This document shows positions 3,324 through 55,123 of a stretch of 64,000 nucleotides of DNA, in pieces. The position numbers and the translations under genes were made by a program. The stretch lies in the NCBI GenBank assembly GCA_025677605.1, contig GCA_025677605.1_4110.1; one strand, written 5' to 3'. The stretch is from a phage. Position 1 is the first letter of the stretch. Each line of letters starts with the position of its first letter. The notes beneath the pieces were generated by a model. That model saw only the letters and a program-made list of their open reading frames with translations, was not told the DNA's origin and did no database searches.

Positions 3324-3801
3324 TGCATTTCCAGAATATAGGATGTTTGTTAAGTGTTTGAAATATCATATCAAATGTAAATTTGTAATAAGAATAAACA
3401 CCGAAATTAATTGATATAGAATTTAAATTAGTTTCATGCACCATAGCACTATGTATCAGAACTGCATTTCTATGAAACTCATTATCAAGGCTCAATTCAG
3501 CCATAAAATCATCTAAAGTTCTGTCGCCGTTCTTTTTCTCGTATATGATTTCACCACTTGGTTCAATGAATACTGAACTTTCCCTTGATAGGATCATGAT
3601 TCGTTTCTCAATGACATTTTGAGATTCTTGACAGTTGAGTTCACAAAATGTCCATGAGCCACAGAACACAGCGATAATGTCGTTGTTTTTCACGAAGTTA
3701 AAGGGAATGCCATCAATCATTATCTGTACTTCGTGCACAAATTTATGAGAATACTTCTCAAGAATTTTACAAAATTTAATAACGTCTGCTGGATTTAACA
3801 T
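3316..3801 (-). CDS. hypothetical protein in FQ array (motif not evident)
   Basis: 161 aa ORF, tightly coupled in array. Confidence 0.5.
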   Translation of the reverse strand: MLNPADVIKFCKILEKYSHKFVHEVQIMIDGIPFNFVKNNDIIAVFCGSWTFCELNCQESQNVIEKRIMILSRESSVFIEPSGEIIYEKKNGDRTLDDFMAELSLDNEFHRNAVLIHSAMVHETNLNSISINFGVYSYYKFTFDMIFQTLNKHPIFWKCNE

Positions 3802-35890: not shown

Positions 35891-35918
35891 ATTATACAGT
35901 ACTGATATACTTTGTCAA
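35891..35918 (-). promoter_or_regulatory. sigma70-like early promoter
   Basis: minus strand TTGACA, 16 nt spacer, TATAAT. Confidence 0.6.
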
Positions 35919-49203: not shown

Positions 49204-49878
49204 TTAATATTCGATTGATTCTACTACGCCATCAATAACATTGAATTGATATTCGTTACCCTCAATCAGTGCCGTAATGTTTTCAGTAGTGAATTGATCC
49301 TCATATGCATTCTCTAAATCACGGTACAACTTGCGGGATAATTCACGAATAGTTTCAGTGAGTAGTTCCTCAAGCTCATTAACTAACGCTTCTTGTTTTG
49401 CGGTTAAATCAGTGTAAGCCGATTCAATGTACCCGCTTACAGTGTTTTCATGCGAGTAGTTGGAGTGAGAACGCTTTACACTCATTGCCAAATCATCTTC
49501 ATTCAGCAGGTGACGGATTGAGCGATACTTAGTTAATGCTCTAACCTTGCGTAAAAACTTCTCAGCGTCAACGTGGTCAGTACTAATTGATGCACCGTCA
49601 CCCTGCGACCAAAAACCACTGAATTGTATTTCAGCGTCATTAATGCCATATTCCGGTAGTACTGTTTCTTTATAGTATTCAATTTCACTTTCAGAAAAAT
49701 AATCGTCGTTTAAGTTTTTTTCACGTTCCCGAACCAGTTCGATAGCTGACGTTTGTTGTTCTGCGTTCAATTCAGAAAAATCCATAACGAAAGTAGTATT
49801 AGTGACAGTTTTCGCTTTGCAACCCTCATTCAATTCAGAAAAATCCATAACGAAAGTAGTAGTAGTGATAGTTTTCAT
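49204..49878 (-). CDS. hypothetical protein with N-terminal tandem duplication
   Basis: 224 aa; 21-aa unit TTFVMDFSELN repeated twice from a 63-bp direct DNA repeat near 49743-49870. Confidence 0.55.
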   Translation of the reverse strand: MKTITTTTFVMDFSELNEGCKAKTVTNTTFVMDFSELNAEQQTSAIELVREREKNLNDDYFSESEIEYYKETVLPEYGINDAEIQFSGFWSQGDGASISTDHVDAEKFLRKVRALTKYRSIRHLLNEDDLAMSVKRSHSNYSHENTVSGYIESAYTDLTAKQEALVNELEELLTETIRELSRKLYRDLENAYEDQFTTENITALIEGNEYQFNVIDGVVESIEY

Positions 49879-49946
49879 TTTGTAACTCTCATTCAGTAGT
49901 TGATGTAAGTATTATACGCTTTTAAAAACAATTGTCAAACTATTTT

Positions 49947-51534: not shown

Positions 51535-52044
51535 TTAAGAGTACTTTTTAAAATATTTTATTATTGTTTCCTTTGTAACTCCAAATTTTCTACCCAATGC
51601 AGTAGCACCATAAACGCGATCCCCTGGCTTATAATGTGTTATAATGTATTGTGTATCGTCGGCGGTCAAACGTGCCTTATCGTTATCATATCCCGTTAAA
51701 CGTGGTTTAACTAATCCAGAATCAAACGCATGTTTAACATTTTCGCTATTGGTTGCCCATTCCAACGCGGTGTAATGATTGTTCGCCTTTCCCTTTAAAT
51801 GATTAACTTGAACTATCTTATAGTGAGTTTTTGCAGCCCATGCGATTTGTTCCGCAGTAGGCGGTGATAGATAGTTATTAGCAACCAATCTATGAACAAA
51901 ATGATCCCCATCGTTTAACGATACTCTTTGATAACCTTTTTCGGTTATACGTGGTTTAAGATTGGTTGTAGTGCCAATCTTTCTAACATCCCCATACTCG
52001 CTAACTTCATATAAATTATTTTCTTTTAGTACCTTCCATTGCAT
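51535..52044 (-). CDS. HNH homing endonuclease
   Basis: 169 aa; LYEVSEYGDVRK...KGYQRVSL...HFVHRLVANNY typical of phage HNH endonucleases. Confidence 0.75.
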   Translation of the reverse strand: MQWKVLKENNLYEVSEYGDVRKIGTTTNLKPRITEKGYQRVSLNDGDHFVHRLVANNYLSPPTAEQIAWAAKTHYKIVQVNHLKGKANNHYTALEWATNSENVKHAFDSGLVKPRLTGYDNDKARLTADDTQYIITHYKPGDRVYGATALGRKFGVTKETIIKYFKKYS

Positions 52045-52118
52045 ACACGATCCCCTGATGTAACATTTATTTGATACTATTATATCATAAAAATATGTTC
52101 CATCTCATAAAATAGTAC

Positions 52119-52146
52119 TTGCATTCTGTACGGCATAGCGTATAAT
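52119..52146 (+). promoter_or_regulatory. plus-strand sigma70-like promoter
   Basis: TTGCAT, 16 nt spacer, TATAAT, then TACTACATAAG...CTAACCCACAGGGTGC element. Confidence 0.45.
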
Positions 52147-52200
52147 TACTACATAAGCCGGAAACAAGGCACTAACCCACAGGGTGCCGAGATCCGCCCA
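52147..52200 (+). repeat. conserved noncoding element, copy 7 (plus orientation)
   Basis: tactacataagccggaaacaaggcactaacccacagggtgccgagatccgcc. Confidence 0.45.
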
Positions 52201-52334
52201 AAATTCATATAATTTAAAAAGGATACACTCCCGCACCCTAGCAGGTCAAAGCACTTTCTCAGTACTGAATCATAGTACCATAGTACGCCCCAGGATGGCA
52301 AGCAAATTAATTAAAACTTTTTACACTTAGGCTA

Positions 52335-52363
52335 TTGCTTTTATAATTCAGTACTGCTATAAT
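52335..52363 (+). promoter_or_regulatory. plus-strand sigma70-like promoter
   Basis: TTGCTT, 17 nt spacer, TATAAT. Confidence 0.4.
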
Positions 52364-52374
52364 TATTTCATCAA

Positions 52375-52415
52375 GTCGAGAAAGACTCTAGCCCACCGGG
52401 TGCATAGTTACGCCC
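52375..52415 (+). repeat. conserved noncoding element, copy 8 (plus orientation)
   Basis: ctctagcccaccgggtgcatagttacgcc. Confidence 0.45.
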
Positions 52416-52587
52416 AAAATTCAGTACTAGATTATTTTTAAAAATATTCATCCAGGCGGTTGACATACCCCGCTAAAACTGGGATAATGTTTCCAGATTC
52501 AGAAAAATCTAACTCCAGATACTGCGGGGAAACCATCCCCACGCGGTAGGGGAACTATTGGAAAAAACAAAATAAAAATTTTGATTT

Positions 52588-52765
52588 AGCCGTCTATACA
52601 TCCAGACGTGTAACCATCTAGCCATCTAGCCGTCCAAACGTCTAGCAGTACAGCCATCTAGAAATCTAGCCATCTAGAAATCTAGCCATCCAGCCGTCTA
52701 GAGGGATAGCCATCTTTACTTCCAGACTTCTGGAGGGCTAGACATCTCTACGTCCAAAATCCACC
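52588..52765. repeat. CTAG-rich short direct repeat array
   Basis: about a dozen CTAG-containing 8-12 bp units (ccatctagcc, cgtctag, gaaatctagcc) within about 180 bp; no ORF. Confidence 0.6.
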
Positions 52766-53341
52766 CAGGGTTACTACGCCCAAAATCCGTCAGTACTATA
52801 CCATAGATCTATCTTTAAGAAGGGAGTATTCAGTACTGCCATCATAGTCCTCACTATGTTACCCTAGGAGGATGAAGACTATCATGTAGTACTGAATACT
52901 TTTAAGGGGAATATCATCACATTGCGTGATGCATTATATATTAGATTAATATCAGTACTGCTACCATTCTGTTAATAACAGTACTGTTTATATTACGAAA
53001 AAAGAGGTTGTCAAAGATGAACCACTGCATAGGAGGATTCAATCTCTTCTGTACTGTCTCACGACAGGAGGGTTAAGGCTCTGAATTGTTTGCGGCAATT
53101 CATCACTCTATGTAGAACATTATACAGTACTGAATCATAATGTCAATAGATTTCTTCCATTATTCAGTACTGAAAACATATCTTCTGTATCTCTTCAAAA
53201 CTCATTATATCCCACTAATCCTATATGTCCCAATGTAAATTTCAACTTTCGAAGATCCAACTTTTATTTCATAGGTACTCCAAAATTTTTACGATCCAGA
53301 TTTACGATGGAGTACTAACCAACTTTTTGCTGGAGCCTCAA

Positions 53342-53400
53342 GGGGTATTCGGAATTTTCCCCAATGGGTATTCGGGATTTTTGACGAAGGGTAAATTGAA
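53342..53400. repeat. tandem direct repeat GGGTATTCGGAATTTT
   Basis: two adjacent near-identical 18-20 bp units. Confidence 0.5.
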
Positions 53401-53590
53401 CTTTTTTGAATAGGTGATTGGGAGTTTTCAGTACTGGTCATTCCGTGATTACTTTTGATTGGAAATGATTTGTTTTGCAATTGTTCAGTACTGTAAAATT
53501 ATGTAAATTTTGGGCGACTTCATTTGCCTACTTAGTGGGATATCAGTACTGAATCATTCCTGCACTCTAGTACTCAATACTCTTCACTAC

Positions 53591-53653
53591 AATGATTATA
53601 AATGATTACTTAAATGTTTATATATGATTACTTATGACTACCTATGATTACGG
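53591..53653. repeat. ATGATTAC iteron-like repeats
   Basis: 5 copies of ATGATTA(C/T) in 63 bp. Confidence 0.55.
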
Positions 53654-53776
53654 GGTTTAGCCTGGGGAGAATCCTAGTGATCGCATTTGTCCAGGCTGAA
53701 TTTTAACATATGCAACATATGTTAAAGCCTGTATAATGCTTGCACTACGGAGCTTCCCCTAGCTATATGTGTTTAA

Positions 53777-53974
53777 TTACTTCCTATATATAAGCATTAA
53801 GATATAGTAGTACTGATTGTACTGTACATTCTCTAGAACAGGAGAAGGGTCTATTGCTATATTAGTACATTTATTAAATTCATATCGAGTCATTGGTAGA
53901 GGGATTAGAGCGTTAATCCATACTTGTTCATTCTCTTTGAGTTTACTTATATAGAATTCTTTATGGTCATTCAT
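53777..53974 (-). CDS. YKEFY-family small protein
   Basis: start moved to MNDHKEFYISKL; C-terminal LMLIYRK. Confidence 0.5.
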   Translation of the reverse strand: MNDHKEFYISKLKENEQVWINALIPLPMTRYEFNKCTNIAIDPSPVLENVQYNQYYYILMLIYRK

Positions 53975-53975
53975 A

Positions 53976-54167
53976 TTAGTGTCTGTATATAAGTAATAGT
54001 AAGAATACGTACTGCACCTGTTCATCTTTAGTATTGAGTACTGTACGTATTGCGTCCTTAAACAAGAATATAGAACTTGGGTCATGGGAATTTAAAGGGA
54101 TTACGGGGACGGCATCTTTGTAGTTCTCTTTAACAAATTGTTTATAGTATTCTTTATAATTATCCAT
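53976..54167 (-). CDS. YKEFY-family small protein
   Basis: 63 aa MDNYKEYYKQF...LLLLIYRH. Confidence 0.55.
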   Translation of the reverse strand: MDNYKEYYKQFVKENYKDAVPVIPLNSHDPSSIFLFKDAIRTVLNTKDEQVQYVFLLLLIYRH

Positions 54168-54360
54168 AGATATATACTAGCAACATTAGGTTAGAGTATA
54201 GTGCTTTAGTGTCATCTTGTTCTAGAGCTTCAATTGAGTTCGTTGTAGCTTTCCTAAAGCCCATTTTTGCGTATGCACTTTTTGGATTAACGGGGGCGGC
54301 GGCTTCGCACCAGATTCTTTCGGTGCTTGATAGTTTACTCATATAGAATTCTTTATACAT
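54160..54360 (-). CDS. YKEFY-family small protein
   Basis: 66 aa MYKEFYMSKL... Confidence 0.55.
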   Translation of the reverse strand: MYKEFYMSKLSSTERIWCEAAAPVNPKSAYAKMGFRKATTNSIEALEQDDTKALYSNLMLLVYIYG

Positions 54361-54361
54361 A

Positions 54362-54544
54362 TTAGTACCTGAATATTAGCATTGTTATGTAGTACAGCAT
54401 ATATGGATTGTCATCGTATATTAGGGTGTACTTAGTACATTGTTGGAACATTATCTTTGCGTGATCTTTTATTCCTATTGGTTCTGTTGGTACAAGGTGT
54501 TGGAGATGCATTGGGAGATGATCTTTATAAAATTCTTTATACAT
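54362..54544 (-). CDS. YKEFY-family small protein
   Basis: 60 aa MYKEFYKDHLP...MLIFRY. Confidence 0.55.
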   Translation of the reverse strand: MYKEFYKDHLPMHLQHLVPTEPIGIKDHAKIMFQQCTKYTLIYDDNPYMLYYITMLIFRY

Positions 54545-54552
54545 ATTAGTCC

Positions 54553-54741
54553 TTAGTACTGGAACGCGAGATACAGAGTGTGGTACAGTTGCACTTGAGA
54601 ATTGTTTTCATTAAGTACTTGTTCAGTACATGTGCGGAAGTAATCAGCTTCGTATATACAGTTAATATCGCGAGGTTCATCTTCTAATAGATTGCCTTGT
54701 AGAAACTTTGGTAGTTCTTTTATGTAGTATTCTTTATGCAT
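54553..54741 (-). CDS. YKEFY-family small protein
   Basis: 62 aa MHKEYYIKELP...YLAFQY. Confidence 0.55.
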   Translation of the reverse strand: MHKEYYIKELPKFLQGNLLEDEPRDINCIYEADYFRTCTEQVLNENNSQVQLYHTLYLAFQY

Positions 54742-54750
54742 ATGATTTCC

Positions 54751-54939
54751 TTAGTACACGAATGCGAGGTACAGGGTGTGGTACAGTACTCGATGATAGC
54801 TATCATAATCTTGTATACATGCTTTAGTGCACATAGTAAAGTACTTTTTATCGTTTTGTGCATTGATACCGCGAGGTTTATCTAATAGATTAGTTATGAG
54901 GTACATTGGGAAATATTTTGTGTAGTATTCTTTGTGCAT
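54751..54939 (-). CDS. YKEFY-family small protein
   Basis: 62 aa MHKEYYTKYFP...YLAFVY. Confidence 0.55.
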   Translation of the reverse strand: MHKEYYTKYFPMYLITNLLDKPRGINAQNDKKYFTMCTKACIQDYDSYHRVLYHTLYLAFVY

Positions 54940-54940
54940 A

Positions 54941-55123
54941 TTAGTACCTGTATATAAGTGTTAGTACATTGTACAAGTTATAGATATCATCTTCATTTAT
55001 TGCAGATTCTGTTTGATATCGGTAGAATATAGTTTGGCTTTTATCTTTGAAATCTACAGGTTTTTGGGGAATAAGTTTTTGGAGATCTATTGTAAGTTTA
55101 CTTACGTAGTATTCTTTATACAT
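54941..55123 (-). CDS. YKEFY-family small protein
   Basis: start moved to MYKEYYVSKL (ATG 55121-55123). Confidence 0.5.
   Translation of the reverse strand: MYKEYYVSKLTIDLQKLIPQKPVDFKDKSQTIFYRYQTESAINEDDIYNLYNVLTLIYRY

What the first reader, a model, noticed from the sequence alone, without database searches (positions are those of the whole stretch)
52588..52765. Array of about 12 CTAG-containing short repeats
CTAG is normally one of the rarest tetramers in bacterial and phage genomes. Here units like CCATCTAGCC, CGTCTAG and GAAATCTAGCC repeat about a dozen times in 180 bp. This is a strong candidate for a multi-site protein-binding array (partition-like or transcription-factor sites) or a recombination or cleavage hotspot.
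Basis: seen in the sequence. Interest (0 to 1): 0.6.

Follow-up and report, generated by a model that had tools for sequence, protein, structure and literature searches.

The report
Met-repressor site array near phage end
A 168-bp stretch near the end of a giant E. coli phage genome consists of 21 head-to-tail 8-bp units that match the binding site of the host's methionine repressor MetJ, and similar arrays sit in the terminal repeats of unrelated T5-like and T7-like phages, which suggests (untested) that these phages recruit this host protein to their DNA ends.

Summary
Window 52588-52755 holds 21 contiguous 8-bp units in one strict register. It contains 9 exact CTAG, all spaced by multiples of 8, in a window where CTAG is depleted (77 found, 173 expected).

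The window is an Asteriusvirus (121Q/PBECO4-like) jumbo phage. The array lies in non-coding DNA 777-945 bp inside the ~21-kb direct terminal repeat, whose boundary maps to 53532|53533.

Read as AG-NNNNNN, the units are "met boxes", the operator of the host repressor MetJ (consensus AGACGTCT). With the published MetJ matrix, 16 of 21 units pass the single-box threshold, for 130 bits. Real E. coli metB/metF operators give 4 boxes and 25-31 bits. Shuffles give runs of at most 3.

Arrays of 6-28 such boxes occur in terminal repeats or end-proximal non-coding DNA of related jumbo genera, T5-like Vibrio/Aeromonas/Providencia phages and T7-like Ermolevavirus/Drulisvirus. All but one recorded host is a genus that has MetJ. 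No phage encodes a MetJ homologue.

Best reading: a cooperative MetJ-SAM binding platform tied to the genome end. Binding and role are inferred, not shown. I found no prior description. Rivals are a terminase site, a phage-encoded binder, a MetJ decoy and neutral slippage.

The parts
52588..52755 (.). Array of 21 contiguous 8-bp units in one register (AGCCGTCT ATACATCC AGACGTGT AACCATCT AGCCATCT AGCCGTCC AAACGTCT AGCAGTAC AGCCATCT AGAAATCT AGCCATCT AGAAATCT AGCCATCC AGCCGTCT AGAGGGAT AGCCATCT TTACTTCC AGACTTCT GGAGGGCT AGACATCT CTACGTCC). These are predicted tandem MetJ boxes.
   Evidence: 16 of 21 units score at or above the published single-box threshold of 3.145 bits. The flanking 8-mers score -5 to -21 bits.
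52588..52699 (.). High-scoring core. Runs of 7 and 6 consecutive boxes above threshold (56.2 and 46.0 bits) are separated by one weak box (AGCAGTAC). The middle of this core is the copy-number-variable zone among relatives.
   Evidence: runs; the longest run in 100 dinucleotide shuffles of the window is 2-3. (indels of 8, 16 or 32 bp only).
52700..52755 (.). Degenerate right-hand part. It alternates good boxes with non-box units (AGAGGGAT, TTACTTCC, GGAGGGCT, CTACGTCC) and has a 32-bp super-repeat. It is almost invariant among Asteriusvirus genomes.
   Evidence: period 32, 2.1 copies, 52689-52756... (single-strand fold z = -5.3, driven by this quasi-palindromic part).
52137..53532 (.). Conserved non-coding leader of the direct terminal repeat. 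It has no credible ORF, carries many CAGTACTG motifs and sigma-70-like promoters, and contains the array.
   Evidence: 36 phage records cover at least 80% of the query at 83-93% identity; most records annotate no gene here..
53526..53532 (-). Predicted physical left end of the virion DNA, which is the outer boundary of the direct terminal repeat (GCCTACT|TAGTGGG). Base 53532 is homologous to base 1 of fEgEco12 and vB_Ec-M-J.
   Evidence: The fEgEco12 termini were fixed by PhageTerm and restriction digests (PMC13070987). This is inferred by homology for the window's own phage.
53119..53146 (-). Consensus sigma-70-type promoter (TTGACA-16-TATAAT, 12 of 12) reading leftwards through the array towards the early genes of the terminal repeat.
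   Evidence: The equivalent site is present in fEgEco12, and a similarly placed site is present in CBB and Serratia BF. This is a pattern match only.
52460..52488 (+). Sigma-70-type promoter (TTGACA-17-GATAAT, 11 of 12, TG-extended) pointing at the array from 100 nt upstream. It is followed by a conserved hairpin and an A-rich tract (52528-52587).
   Evidence: Conserved in fEgEco12. (flank conservation). This is a pattern match only.

Best explanation
The array is a very long tandem operator for the host methionine repressor MetJ.

What the sequence shows:
- It consists of 21 contiguous 8-bp units whose consensus and substitution spectrum are those of the met box AGACGTCT.
- The CTAG tetramers are simply the junctions (..TCT|AG..) between neighbouring boxes.

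Established knowledge of MetJ: one ribbon-helix-helix dimer binds per 8-bp box. Neighbouring dimers contact each other, so binding is cooperative. Binding is strengthened by the corepressor S-adenosylmethionine (SAM). At least two adjacent boxes are needed.

Inferred, not shown: in an infected cell about 13-16 or more MetJ-SAM dimers coat roughly 170 bp of phage DNA, spiralling around the helix. This would happen at a fixed place 0.78-0.95 kb inside the outer boundary of the ~21-kb direct terminal repeat, so near one physical end and again ~21 kb in from the other.

My best guess for the role is also inferred, and weaker. The coated segment may be a host-built architectural element used in a transaction tied to the terminal-repeat boundary, such as DNA entry or holding, end formation or packaging. 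The way lambda uses IHF at cosB is an analogy for this. In this phage it would also be a roadblock between the leftmost early promoter and the first early genes. Titration of MetJ would be a side effect.
For: (1) Matrix match. I used the published MetJ weight matrix and thresholds (PMC3228920). 16 of 21 units pass, for 130 bits. There are runs of 7 and 6 consecutive boxes. The flanks are strongly negative. No other site in the 64 kb reaches the published site threshold. 100 shuffles give runs of at most 3.

(2) Calibration. The same scoring recovers the genuine E. coli K-12 metJ/metB and metF operators (4 boxes; 31.2 and 24.9 bits; single boxes 4.5-10.3 bits). The window's passing boxes score 5.9-11.2 bits.

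(3) Frequency matrix. 189 boxes from 13 phages correlate with the published met-box counts at r = 0.91 in register and at most 0.03 in the other seven registers. The non-consensus spectrum also agrees (Spearman 0.73, p = 5e-5). The consensus of the jumbo-phage boxes is exactly AGACGTCT.

(4) Control for the CTAG junction. Among units of the form AGxxxTCT, the three central bases score +0.6 bits in phage arrays. Random triplets score -5.9. 235 units from period-8 TCTAG arrays in bacterial genomes at large score -4.6 (Mann-Whitney p = 1e-14).

(5) Recurrence in three unrelated phage families, in terminal repeats or in non-coding DNA close to a record start, with unrelated flanks:
- Jumbo genera Asteriusvirus, Eneladusvirus and Mimasvirus have 11-21 good boxes starting about 670-780 bp from the end.
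- T5-like phages: AhSzq-1 28/28, Pontus 16/17, PR1 9/9.
- T7-like phages: PGT2 and phiKT 9, NNA-G4 and KPV811 6.

(6) Hosts. The recorded hosts of the ~96 matching records are Escherichia, Vibrio, Erwinia, Aeromonas, Salmonella, Providencia, Pectobacterium, Cronobacter and Serratia; Yersinia and Klebsiella phages appear in the earlier search with the window's array. These genera belong to orders reported to have MetJ (PMC3228920).

(7) No phage record encodes a MetJ homologue (tblastn), so the binder would be the host protein.

(8) Constraint. Between genera, only the array and about 50 bp upstream of it are BLAST-detectable within the 391-bp stretch (52440-52830) searched. All indels among eight Asteriusvirus genomes are whole boxes.
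Against: - There is no binding experiment. Everything is sequence inference.
- The array is not at a methionine or SAM gene and does not overlap a promoter core, so it is not a classical operator.
- Position 3 is C in 48% of phage boxes against 10% in real met boxes, and the symmetric position is not relaxed. The units are therefore polar, which a symmetric dimer alone does not explain.
- T at position 5 is common in Vibrio phages (32% against 4%).
- Five of the 21 units fail the threshold.
- The threshold is lenient once TCTAG is given. Period-8 TCTAG arrays exist as plain microsatellites in many phyla that lack MetJ.
- One carrier, XbC2 (Mimasvirus, 14/16 good boxes), is recorded on Xanthomonas, which should lack MetJ.
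- The host distribution is confounded by phylogeny. There are only about 3-4 independent lineages.
- The distance to the repeat boundary differs between lineages (0, 37, ~680-780 bp). In T5-like PR1 the array sits at the opposite, inner boundary.
- T5 and T7 themselves lack such an array.
Confidence: 0.6

Rival explanations
1. MetJ decoy. The array does bind MetJ, but its purpose is titration. Two arrays per genome times hundreds of replicated genomes outnumber the cell's own met boxes. That would derepress the methionine/SAM regulon (metA, B, C, E, F, K, NIQ) to feed phage protein synthesis and methylation.
For: There are far more boxes than are needed for tight binding: 16-21 here and up to 28 in AhSzq-1, against 4 in real operators. 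Copy number drifts up and down by whole boxes. The array lies in the repeat, so it is present twice per genome. Jumbo phages have long infection cycles.
Against: A decoy could sit anywhere, yet the arrays are in terminal repeats or end-proximal non-coding DNA in three families. From general knowledge, not tested here: T5-like phages destroy host DNA and T7-like phages shut off host RNA polymerase within minutes, so derepressing host genes would achieve little. Drulisvirus arrays have only 5-6 boxes.
Confidence: 0.15
2. Packaging signal. The units are contact points for the phage's own small terminase subunit (an oligomeric ring that wraps DNA). They would mark the repeat boundary for cutting, and the resemblance to met boxes would be coincidental.
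For: The array is close to the repeat boundary. It abuts the annotated cut site in Drulisvirus NNA-G4, is 37 bp from the record start in PGT2, and is 777 bp from the boundary here. T7 carries a positionally analogous short-repeat array next to its terminal repeat. From general knowledge: pac sites of several phages contain short repeats.
Against: Three unrelated phage families with unrelated terminases would have to share the same 8-bp unit, with the same substitution spectrum as a host operator. A distance of 777-945 bp is far from the cut. In T5-like PR1 the array is at the other boundary.
Confidence: 0.1
3. Binding array for a phage-encoded protein with short-repeat specificity, for example a ribbon-helix-helix protein like plasmid omega/ParG. 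It would act as a centromere-like or regulatory element independent of host MetJ.
For: From general knowledge: ribbon-helix-helix proteins typically read short tandem units (omega reads 7-bp heptads). Small unannotated genes abound in the repeat. The Xanthomonas-hosted XbC2 keeps a good array.
Against: tblastn detects no MetJ-like gene in any phage record. No partition or ribbon-helix-helix domain was found in the flanking genes. A shared phage protein across jumbo, T5-like and T7-like phages is not apparent. The match to the host matrix would be unexplained.
Confidence: 0.08
4. Neutral slippage product. The array is an 8-bp minisatellite with no function that happens to resemble met boxes.
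For: Perfect 8-bp TCTAG-containing microsatellites are common in bacterial and viral contigs. The centre of the array varies in copy number among close relatives.
Against: The units are degenerate yet never lose register. The outer 5 and 8 units are nearly invariant across eight genomes. The array persists at the same place across three jumbo genera whose adjacent sequence, within the 391-bp query tested, has otherwise diverged beyond BLAST detection. The central positions are matrix-like, unlike those of the control microsatellites.
Confidence: 0.04
5. Replication origin iterons, or a TrpR operator array.
For: An A/T-rich tract lies just upstream (52560-52587). In T5-like phages the array lies 50-110 bp from perfect DnaA boxes. 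TrpR operators also carry CTAG at 8-bp spacing (general knowledge; PMC1166578).
Against: No DnaA box lies within 51900-53700 of the window. Eight-bp units are not iteron-like, and no initiator gene is adjacent. TrpR needs ACTAGT, whereas here the base before CTAG is T in 89% of units and the base after CTAG is never T.
Confidence: 0.03

Closest known systems
MetJ operators (tandem met boxes) of the E. coli / gammaproteobacterial methionine regulon
   Same: Both have an 8-bp unit with consensus AGACGTCT, strict head-to-tail register and CTAG at box junctions. Per-box scores fall in the same range as the real metB and metF operators.
   Different: Real operators gave 4 above-threshold boxes in the K-12 loci scored here (from memory, up to about 5 in general). 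They overlap the promoters of methionine or SAM genes. This array has 21 units (16 good) and lies in a phage terminal repeat with no met gene. It is 100 nt from the nearest promoter core. Its units are polar (C at position 3 in about half).
T7 short-repeat arrays next to the terminal repeat (SRL/SRR of Dunn and Studier; name recalled from memory, sequence checked here)
   Same: Both are arrays of short imperfect direct repeats in non-coding DNA at the edge of a direct terminal repeat, between the genome end and the first early promoters or genes. The function of both is unknown.
   Different: The T7 unit is CCTAAAG with a period of about 13 (TRF). It is not a met box and lies just outside the 160-bp repeat. 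T7 has no array that scores on the MetJ matrix.
T5 'Repeat Region 3' / injection-stop-signal region with DnaA boxes (Davison, bioRxiv 10.1101/866236)
   Same: Both are large untranslated, repeat-rich regions inside the terminal repeat near its boundary that carry sites for a host DNA-binding protein. In non-Tequintavirus T5-like phages (PR1, Pontus, Chester, pVp-1, AhSzq-1) the met-box array sits 50-110 bp from those DnaA boxes.
   Different: T5 itself has no met-box array. The window has no DnaA boxes near the array. The cited paper does not mention MetJ.
Ribbon-helix-helix centromere or operator arrays (omega of pSM19035, ParG; from general knowledge)
   Same: In both, many short (7-8 bp) contiguous units would each bind one dimer of a MetJ/Arc-fold protein, forming a protein spiral on DNA.
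   Different: Those arrays sit next to their own par or regulator genes and are read by an element-encoded protein. Here no such gene is adjacent and the sequence matches the host repressor's site.
IHF site in lambda cosB (host factor assisting terminase; general knowledge)
   Same: It is a conceptual model for a host DNA-binding protein recruited near a phage genome end.
   Different: It uses a different protein, is a single site, lies within about 200 bp of the cut, and has been demonstrated experimentally. Nothing comparable has been tested here.

Membership tests
MetJ operator (tandem met boxes) | 8-bp unit matching the met-box matrix (consensus AGACGTCT) | tested here: met
   16 of 21 units score at least 3.145 bits on the published matrix. 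The consensus of the jumbo-phage boxes is AGACGTCT, with r = 0.91 against published counts. The central-triplet control gives p = 1e-14.
MetJ operator (tandem met boxes) | Two or more boxes directly adjacent in 8-bp register, with total score at or above the consensus value | tested here: met
   There are runs of 7 and 6 boxes (56.2 and 46.0 bits against a threshold of 12.58). Shuffles give at most 3.
MetJ operator (tandem met boxes) | Overlaps the promoter of a methionine/SAM biosynthesis or transport gene and represses it | tested here: not met
   No met gene is nearby. The neighbours are an HNH endonuclease and small hypothetical proteins. The nearest promoter-like cores are 100 nt (+ strand) and about 365 nt (- strand) away.
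MetJ operator (tandem met boxes) | Bound by MetJ in a SAM-dependent, cooperative manner | not testable with these tools
   This needs EMSA, footprinting or ChIP.
MetJ operator (tandem met boxes) | The host possesses MetJ | tested here: met
   The closest relatives infect E. coli. MetJ is present in Enterobacterales, Vibrionales, Aeromonadales, Pasteurellales and Alteromonadales (PMC3228920). All carrier phages but one (XbC2, Xanthomonas) have hosts recorded from genera of the first three of those orders.
T7-type terminal short-repeat array (SRL/SRR) | Imperfect short direct repeats in non-coding DNA at the edge of a direct terminal repeat | tested here: met
   The array lies 777-945 bp inside the repeat boundary at 53532. 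The T7 array lies at 174-345, next to its repeat.
T7-type terminal short-repeat array (SRL/SRR) | CCTAAAG-type unit / sequence homology | tested here: not met
   The unit and period differ: period 13 with CCTAAAG in T7, against period 8 with AGCCATCT here.
Replication-origin iterons | Roughly 17-22-bp repeats, DnaA boxes, an AT-rich unwinding element and an adjacent initiator gene | tested here: not met
   The period is 8 bp. No DnaA box lies in 51900-53700. No initiator domain was found in the neighbouring genes. Only a short A/T tract is present.
Partition centromere (parS / RHH-type) | Repeat array adjacent to parA/parB or an RHH centromere-binding gene | tested here: not met
   Pfam and PHROG scans of the eight flanking ORFs find HNH/NUMOD4, DUF7249 and families of unknown function only. 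The rest of the phage genome was not scanned.
TrpR operator | CTAG embedded in ACTAGT half-sites at 8-bp spacing | tested here: not met
   The base before CTAG is T in 89% of 189 units and A in 0%. The base after CTAG (box position 3) is T in 0%. The operator consensus is taken from general knowledge.
T5 injection-stop region (Repeat Region 3) | Paired DnaA boxes within large inverted repeats near the inner repeat boundary | tested here: not met
   This holds for the T5-like carriers but not for the window. The window has no DnaA boxes, and the array is at the outer boundary.

The most novel reading that the evidence does not exclude
Phages of at least three unrelated families (Rak2-like jumbo myoviruses, non-T5 Demerecviridae, and Ermolevavirus/Drulisvirus podoviruses) have independently acquired super-long arrays of the host methionine repressor's operator in or beside their terminal repeats. 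They would use MetJ-SAM, a metabolic sensor, as a structural cofactor for a genome-end process such as DNA entry or holding, end formation or packaging. This would couple infection to the host's SAM state. It would also give a first molecular handle on the long-unexplained short-repeat arrays at the ends of terminally redundant phages and on the T5-type injection-stop region.
Probability: 0.35. Interest if true: 0.85.

Novelty: new variant of a known kind. Interest (0 to 1): 0.68.

Why it matters
The short repeat arrays next to the terminal repeats of T7-type phages, and the repeat-rich injection-stop region of T5-type phages, have been known for about 40 years without a mechanism.

If MetJ binds these arrays, a named, purifiable, non-essential host protein becomes a testable candidate for such elements in three phage families. 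The tools already exist: a metJ deletion host, a SAM-dependent EMSA and array deletion.

It would also be an unusual case of viruses copying a host operator not to regulate a gene but to build a nucleoprotein structure, or a repressor sink, on their own DNA. That would link infection to methionine/SAM status.

Practically, it marks a conserved landmark about 0.7-0.9 kb from the true genome end. This could help orient and start-position jumbo-phage assemblies.

Tried and rejected
- **RNA element.** Rfam at a permissive threshold finds nothing relevant. CTAG every 8 nt puts stops in all frames, and no ORF of 40 aa or more crosses the array.
- **Dispersed genomic motif.** CCATCTAG with up to 1 mismatch is at chance level outside the array (34 found, 36 expected). 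Met-box-like 8-mers are not enriched in the window overall (934 found, 953 in shuffles).
- **Phage-encoded MetJ.** tblastn of E. coli MetJ against 50,697 phage records hits only bacterial contaminant records.
- **The T5 homologue region.** T5 itself has only its own 14-nt repeats (direct repeat D) and DnaA boxes there, and no array.
- **Genome-wide scan of bacterial genomes for four TCTAG at 8-bp spacing.** I meant it as a test of host distribution. It returned mostly perfect microsatellites from many phyla and was uninformative for that purpose. I reused it as a negative control.
- **IMG/VR scan with a degenerate four-box pattern.** It gave 13 loci: some isolates, two uncultivated T5-like contigs with good degenerate arrays next to DnaA boxes, and the rest simple repeats at contig ends. 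There is no host information.
- **Consistent link to transcription.** A promoter reads through the array in the jumbo genera. In T5-like phages the array lies downstream of the pre-early terminator, and in T7-like phages it is too close to the end. Transcriptional control is therefore not a general explanation.
- **Literature.** Searches for MetJ or met box together with phage, T5 or terminal repeat found no prior description. Davison's 2015 review could not be retrieved.

Full report
**1. The observation.**
The sequence at 52588-52765 is as described. CTAG occurs 9 times between 52618 and 52741, and every spacing is a multiple of 8 bp. The window as a whole is depleted in CTAG (77 found, 173 +/- 11 expected), so this is a local excess of about 70-fold. 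Tandem Repeats Finder calls a period-8 array with consensus CCATCTAG, plus 16-, 32- and 40-bp super-periods. Laid out in register there are 21 contiguous units from 52588 to 52755. The exact unit occurs nowhere else in the 64 kb, and one-mismatch variants are at chance level. The observation itself is confirmed.

**2. Where it sits.**
The region 52137-53400 matches 36 phage records at 83-93% identity. All are Asteriusvirus (121Q/PBECO4/A4-like jumbo coliphages), and most annotate no gene there. In records that begin at the physical end, the match starts about 140 bp from base 1 and lies in an annotated direct terminal repeat of 21,525 bp (vB_Ec-M-J). The termini of fEgEco12 were determined with PhageTerm and confirmed by restriction digests, giving a repeat of 20,993 bp (PMC13070987).

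Aligning both the left end and the unique/right-repeat junction of fEgEco12 to the window places the repeat boundary at 53532|53533 (GCCTACT|TAGTGGG). The array is therefore 777-945 bp inside the repeat. It lies in a ~1.4-kb non-coding leader that precedes the small early-type genes on the minus strand. No ORF of 40 aa or more crosses it, and no Rfam family matches. The flanking ORFs are an HNH/NUMOD4 endonuclease and proteins of unknown function.

**3. What the units are.**
A BLAST search with the array found the same kind of 8-bp array in unrelated phages. Reading these showed units such as AGACGTCC, AGACGTCT, AGCCATCT and AGACTTCT. In the register AG-NNNNNN this is the met box, the 8-bp operator unit of the methionine repressor MetJ (consensus AGACGTCT). 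The CTAG tetramers are the junctions between boxes.

I took the published information matrix and thresholds of Augustus and Spicer (PMC3228920, Table 3). Results:
- 16 of the 21 units reach the single-box threshold (5.9-11.2 bits each, 130 bits in all).
- There are runs of 7 and 6 consecutive boxes.
- The 8-mers just outside score -5 to -21 bits.
- No other place in the window reaches the published site threshold.
- 100 dinucleotide shuffles never give more than 3 boxes in a row.

The same script recovers the true E. coli K-12 metJ/metB and metF operators as the top sites of a 7-kb locus (4 boxes each, 31.2 and 24.9 bits). The scoring is therefore calibrated, and the phage array is 4-5 times a natural operator.

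**4. Is the match more than the CTAG?**
Any unit of the form AGxxxTCT already collects 7.9 bits, so I tested the three central positions alone.
- In phage arrays they score +0.6 bits on average (88% of units at or above -0.5).
- Random triplets score -5.9.
- 235 units from period-8 TCTAG arrays found in bacterial genomes at large score -4.6. These are mostly perfect microsatellites from many phyla.
- The difference is significant (Mann-Whitney p = 1e-14).

The position frequency matrix of 189 boxes from 13 phages correlates with the published met-box counts at r = 0.91 in register and at most 0.03 in any other register. The minor bases agree as well (Spearman 0.73, p = 5e-5).

The main departure is C at position 3 (48% against 10%) without the symmetric relaxation. 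The units are therefore polar. One possible reason is avoidance of long perfect palindromes, but this is conjecture. The single-strand fold is still unusually stable (z = -5.3).

TrpR, the other repressor known to read CTAG at 8-bp spacing (PMC1166578), needs ACTAGT. That flank is essentially absent here.

**5. Distribution.**
Arrays of 6-28 boxes occur in the following groups:
- Related jumbo genera Eneladusvirus and Mimasvirus (Serratia BF, Erwinia pEa_SNUABM_12, Yersinia fHe-Yen9-04, Pectobacterium CBB, Cronobacter GAP32) have 11-14 good boxes. In BF, pEa_SNUABM_12 and CBB the array starts about 670-690 bp from the record start. In CBB this is inside an annotated 22,456-bp repeat. In fHe-Yen9-04 and GAP32 the records begin elsewhere (array at ~44-144 and ~3,480-3,640).
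- T5-like Demerecviridae of Vibrio, Aeromonas and Providencia: AhSzq-1 28/28, Pontus 16/17, Chester 13/17, pVp-1 9/9, PR1 9/9, PVo5 8/8.
- T7-like Autographiviridae: PGT2 and phiKT 9, NNA-G4 and KPV811 6.

The flanks are unrelated between families.

Where termini are annotated, the array is in the terminal repeat and close to one boundary:
- It abuts the boundary in NNA-G4.
- It lies 38-109 bp from the record start in PGT2.
- It lies about 770 bp from the inner boundary of the 10,461-bp repeat in PR1.

In the T5-like phages it always lies 50-110 bp from perfect DnaA boxes. That places it in the equivalent of the T5 injection-stop region described by Davison. T5 and T7 themselves lack it. T7 has a positionally analogous array of a different unit.

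The hosts of the ~96 matching records all belong to genera of orders reported to possess MetJ. The one exception is Xanthomonas phage XbC2, a Mimasvirus with 14/16 good boxes. No phage record encodes a MetJ homologue.

**6. Evolution within the genus.**
In an alignment of eight Asteriusvirus genomes, the first five and last eight units are almost invariant. The centre gains and loses units. Every indel inside the array is 8, 16 or 32 bp. Array length ranges from 16 to 24 units, and the window's phage has 21. Between genera, only the array and about 50 bp upstream remain BLAST-detectable within the 391-bp query used.

**7. Mechanism.**
- Shown: the sequence properties above.
- Established knowledge: one MetJ dimer binds per box, neighbouring dimers bind cooperatively, SAM acts as corepressor, at least two boxes are needed, and dimers can form wheel-like assemblies around DNA (PMC3228920; PMC2775130).
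- Inferred: host MetJ-SAM coats about 170 bp at this fixed place in each repeat copy.

The biological role is open. I favour an end-linked architectural role, for three reasons:
- The only feature common to all three families is a position in non-coding DNA in or beside the terminal repeat, within about 0-0.95 kb of a repeat boundary.
- In T5-like phages the array neighbours another cluster of host-protein sites (DnaA boxes).
- A pure decoy could sit anywhere, and would achieve little in phages that rapidly shut off or destroy the host genome.

In this phage the array also lies between a consensus promoter (53146..53119, minus strand) and the first early genes. A second promoter points at it from the other side (52460-52488). 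Both are conserved in fEgEco12. A roadblock or insulator effect is therefore possible locally, but it does not generalise.

**8. Novelty and caveats.**
Full-text searches found no paper linking MetJ or met boxes to phage terminal repeats. The CBB, fEgEco12 and T5 injection papers do not mention it. The library is incomplete, so prior description cannot be excluded.

Everything rests on sequence. The threshold is lenient once TCTAG is given. The host association rests on few independent lineages. The XbC2 record and the polarity of the units are unexplained.

I rate it a new variant of a known kind: a met-box operator in a new, non-regulon, end-associated, super-long form.

Noticed in passing
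whole window; dense at 52255-53551: The 8-bp palindrome CAGTACTG occurs 58 times against 0.8 expected, and about 14 copies lie in the non-coding leader. In terminal-repeat promoters on the minus strand it fills the spacer (TTGACA-N8-CAGTACTG-TATAAT), for example at 53146..53119 and near 35897, 33601, 40616 and 43877. It contains a ScaI site. It may be an operator for a phage regulator or a promoter-specificity element.
   Followed up: partly
53526-53533: The window crosses the junction between the unique right end and the direct terminal repeat (GCCTACT|TAGTGGG). This junction is identical in fEgEco12. The window therefore comes from a circularised or concatemer-type assembly, and the true virion end is predicted at 53532.
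   Followed up: yes
53444-53470 and 53591-53651: Short TGATTA(C)-type repeats flank the predicted end on both sides. Outside the repeat they form a 10/22-bp tandem array (TRF). These are candidate terminase recognition elements.
   Followed up: no
about 32000: G+C content steps from about 0.33 to about 0.38-0.40 at about 32 kb and stays high up to about 52 kb. This coincides with where the inner boundary of a ~21-kb terminal repeat should lie (53532 minus about 21,000).
   Followed up: partly
about 54000: GC skew changes sign at about 54 kb, just outside the repeat boundary, although tightly packed small genes are on the minus strand on both sides.
   Followed up: no
51535-52044 (-): This 169-aa ORF is an HNH/NUMOD4 homing endonuclease. 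The BLAST match to the closest relatives begins only at 52137, so the stretch carrying this gene has no detected counterpart at that position in A4 and 121Q. T5 likewise carries an HNH insertion between its terminal-repeat repeat regions (Davison, 10.1101/866236).
   Followed up: partly
53777-55186 (-): Three small paralogous genes (phrog_11711 family, unknown function) lie in a row just outside the repeat boundary.
   Followed up: no
52496-52587 (+): Downstream of the 52460-52488 promoter lie a conserved hairpin (GCGGGGAAACCATCCCCACGC) and an A-rich/T-run tract that ends exactly where the array starts. This may be a short non-coding transcript or a terminator.
   Followed up: no
49766-49895: A 63-bp tandem repeat of 2.1 copies at 91% identity lies inside the terminal repeat.
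   Followed up: no
L005 704-762, L006 1658-1679, L015-L017, L151, L152: In T5-like phages of Vibrio, Aeromonas and Providencia and in two uncultivated contigs, the met-box array lies 50-110 bp from perfect DnaA boxes (TTATCCACA). Two different host-protein site clusters therefore sit side by side in the injection-stop-type region.
   Followed up: partly
L146 (OP292654.1 648-775): Xanthomonas phage XbC2 (Mimasvirus) keeps a 16-unit array with 14 good boxes, although Xanthomonas is outside the orders reported to have MetJ. Either the host record, the phage's host range or the MetJ hypothesis needs a second look.
   Followed up: partly
L157 (IMGVR_UViG_3300031658_004036), L061, L119: Some uncultivated viral and bacterial contigs carry near-perfect long arrays of high-scoring units, for example 37 copies of AGATGTCY. 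They are often at contig ends, and it is unclear whether they are biological or assembly artefacts.
   Followed up: no
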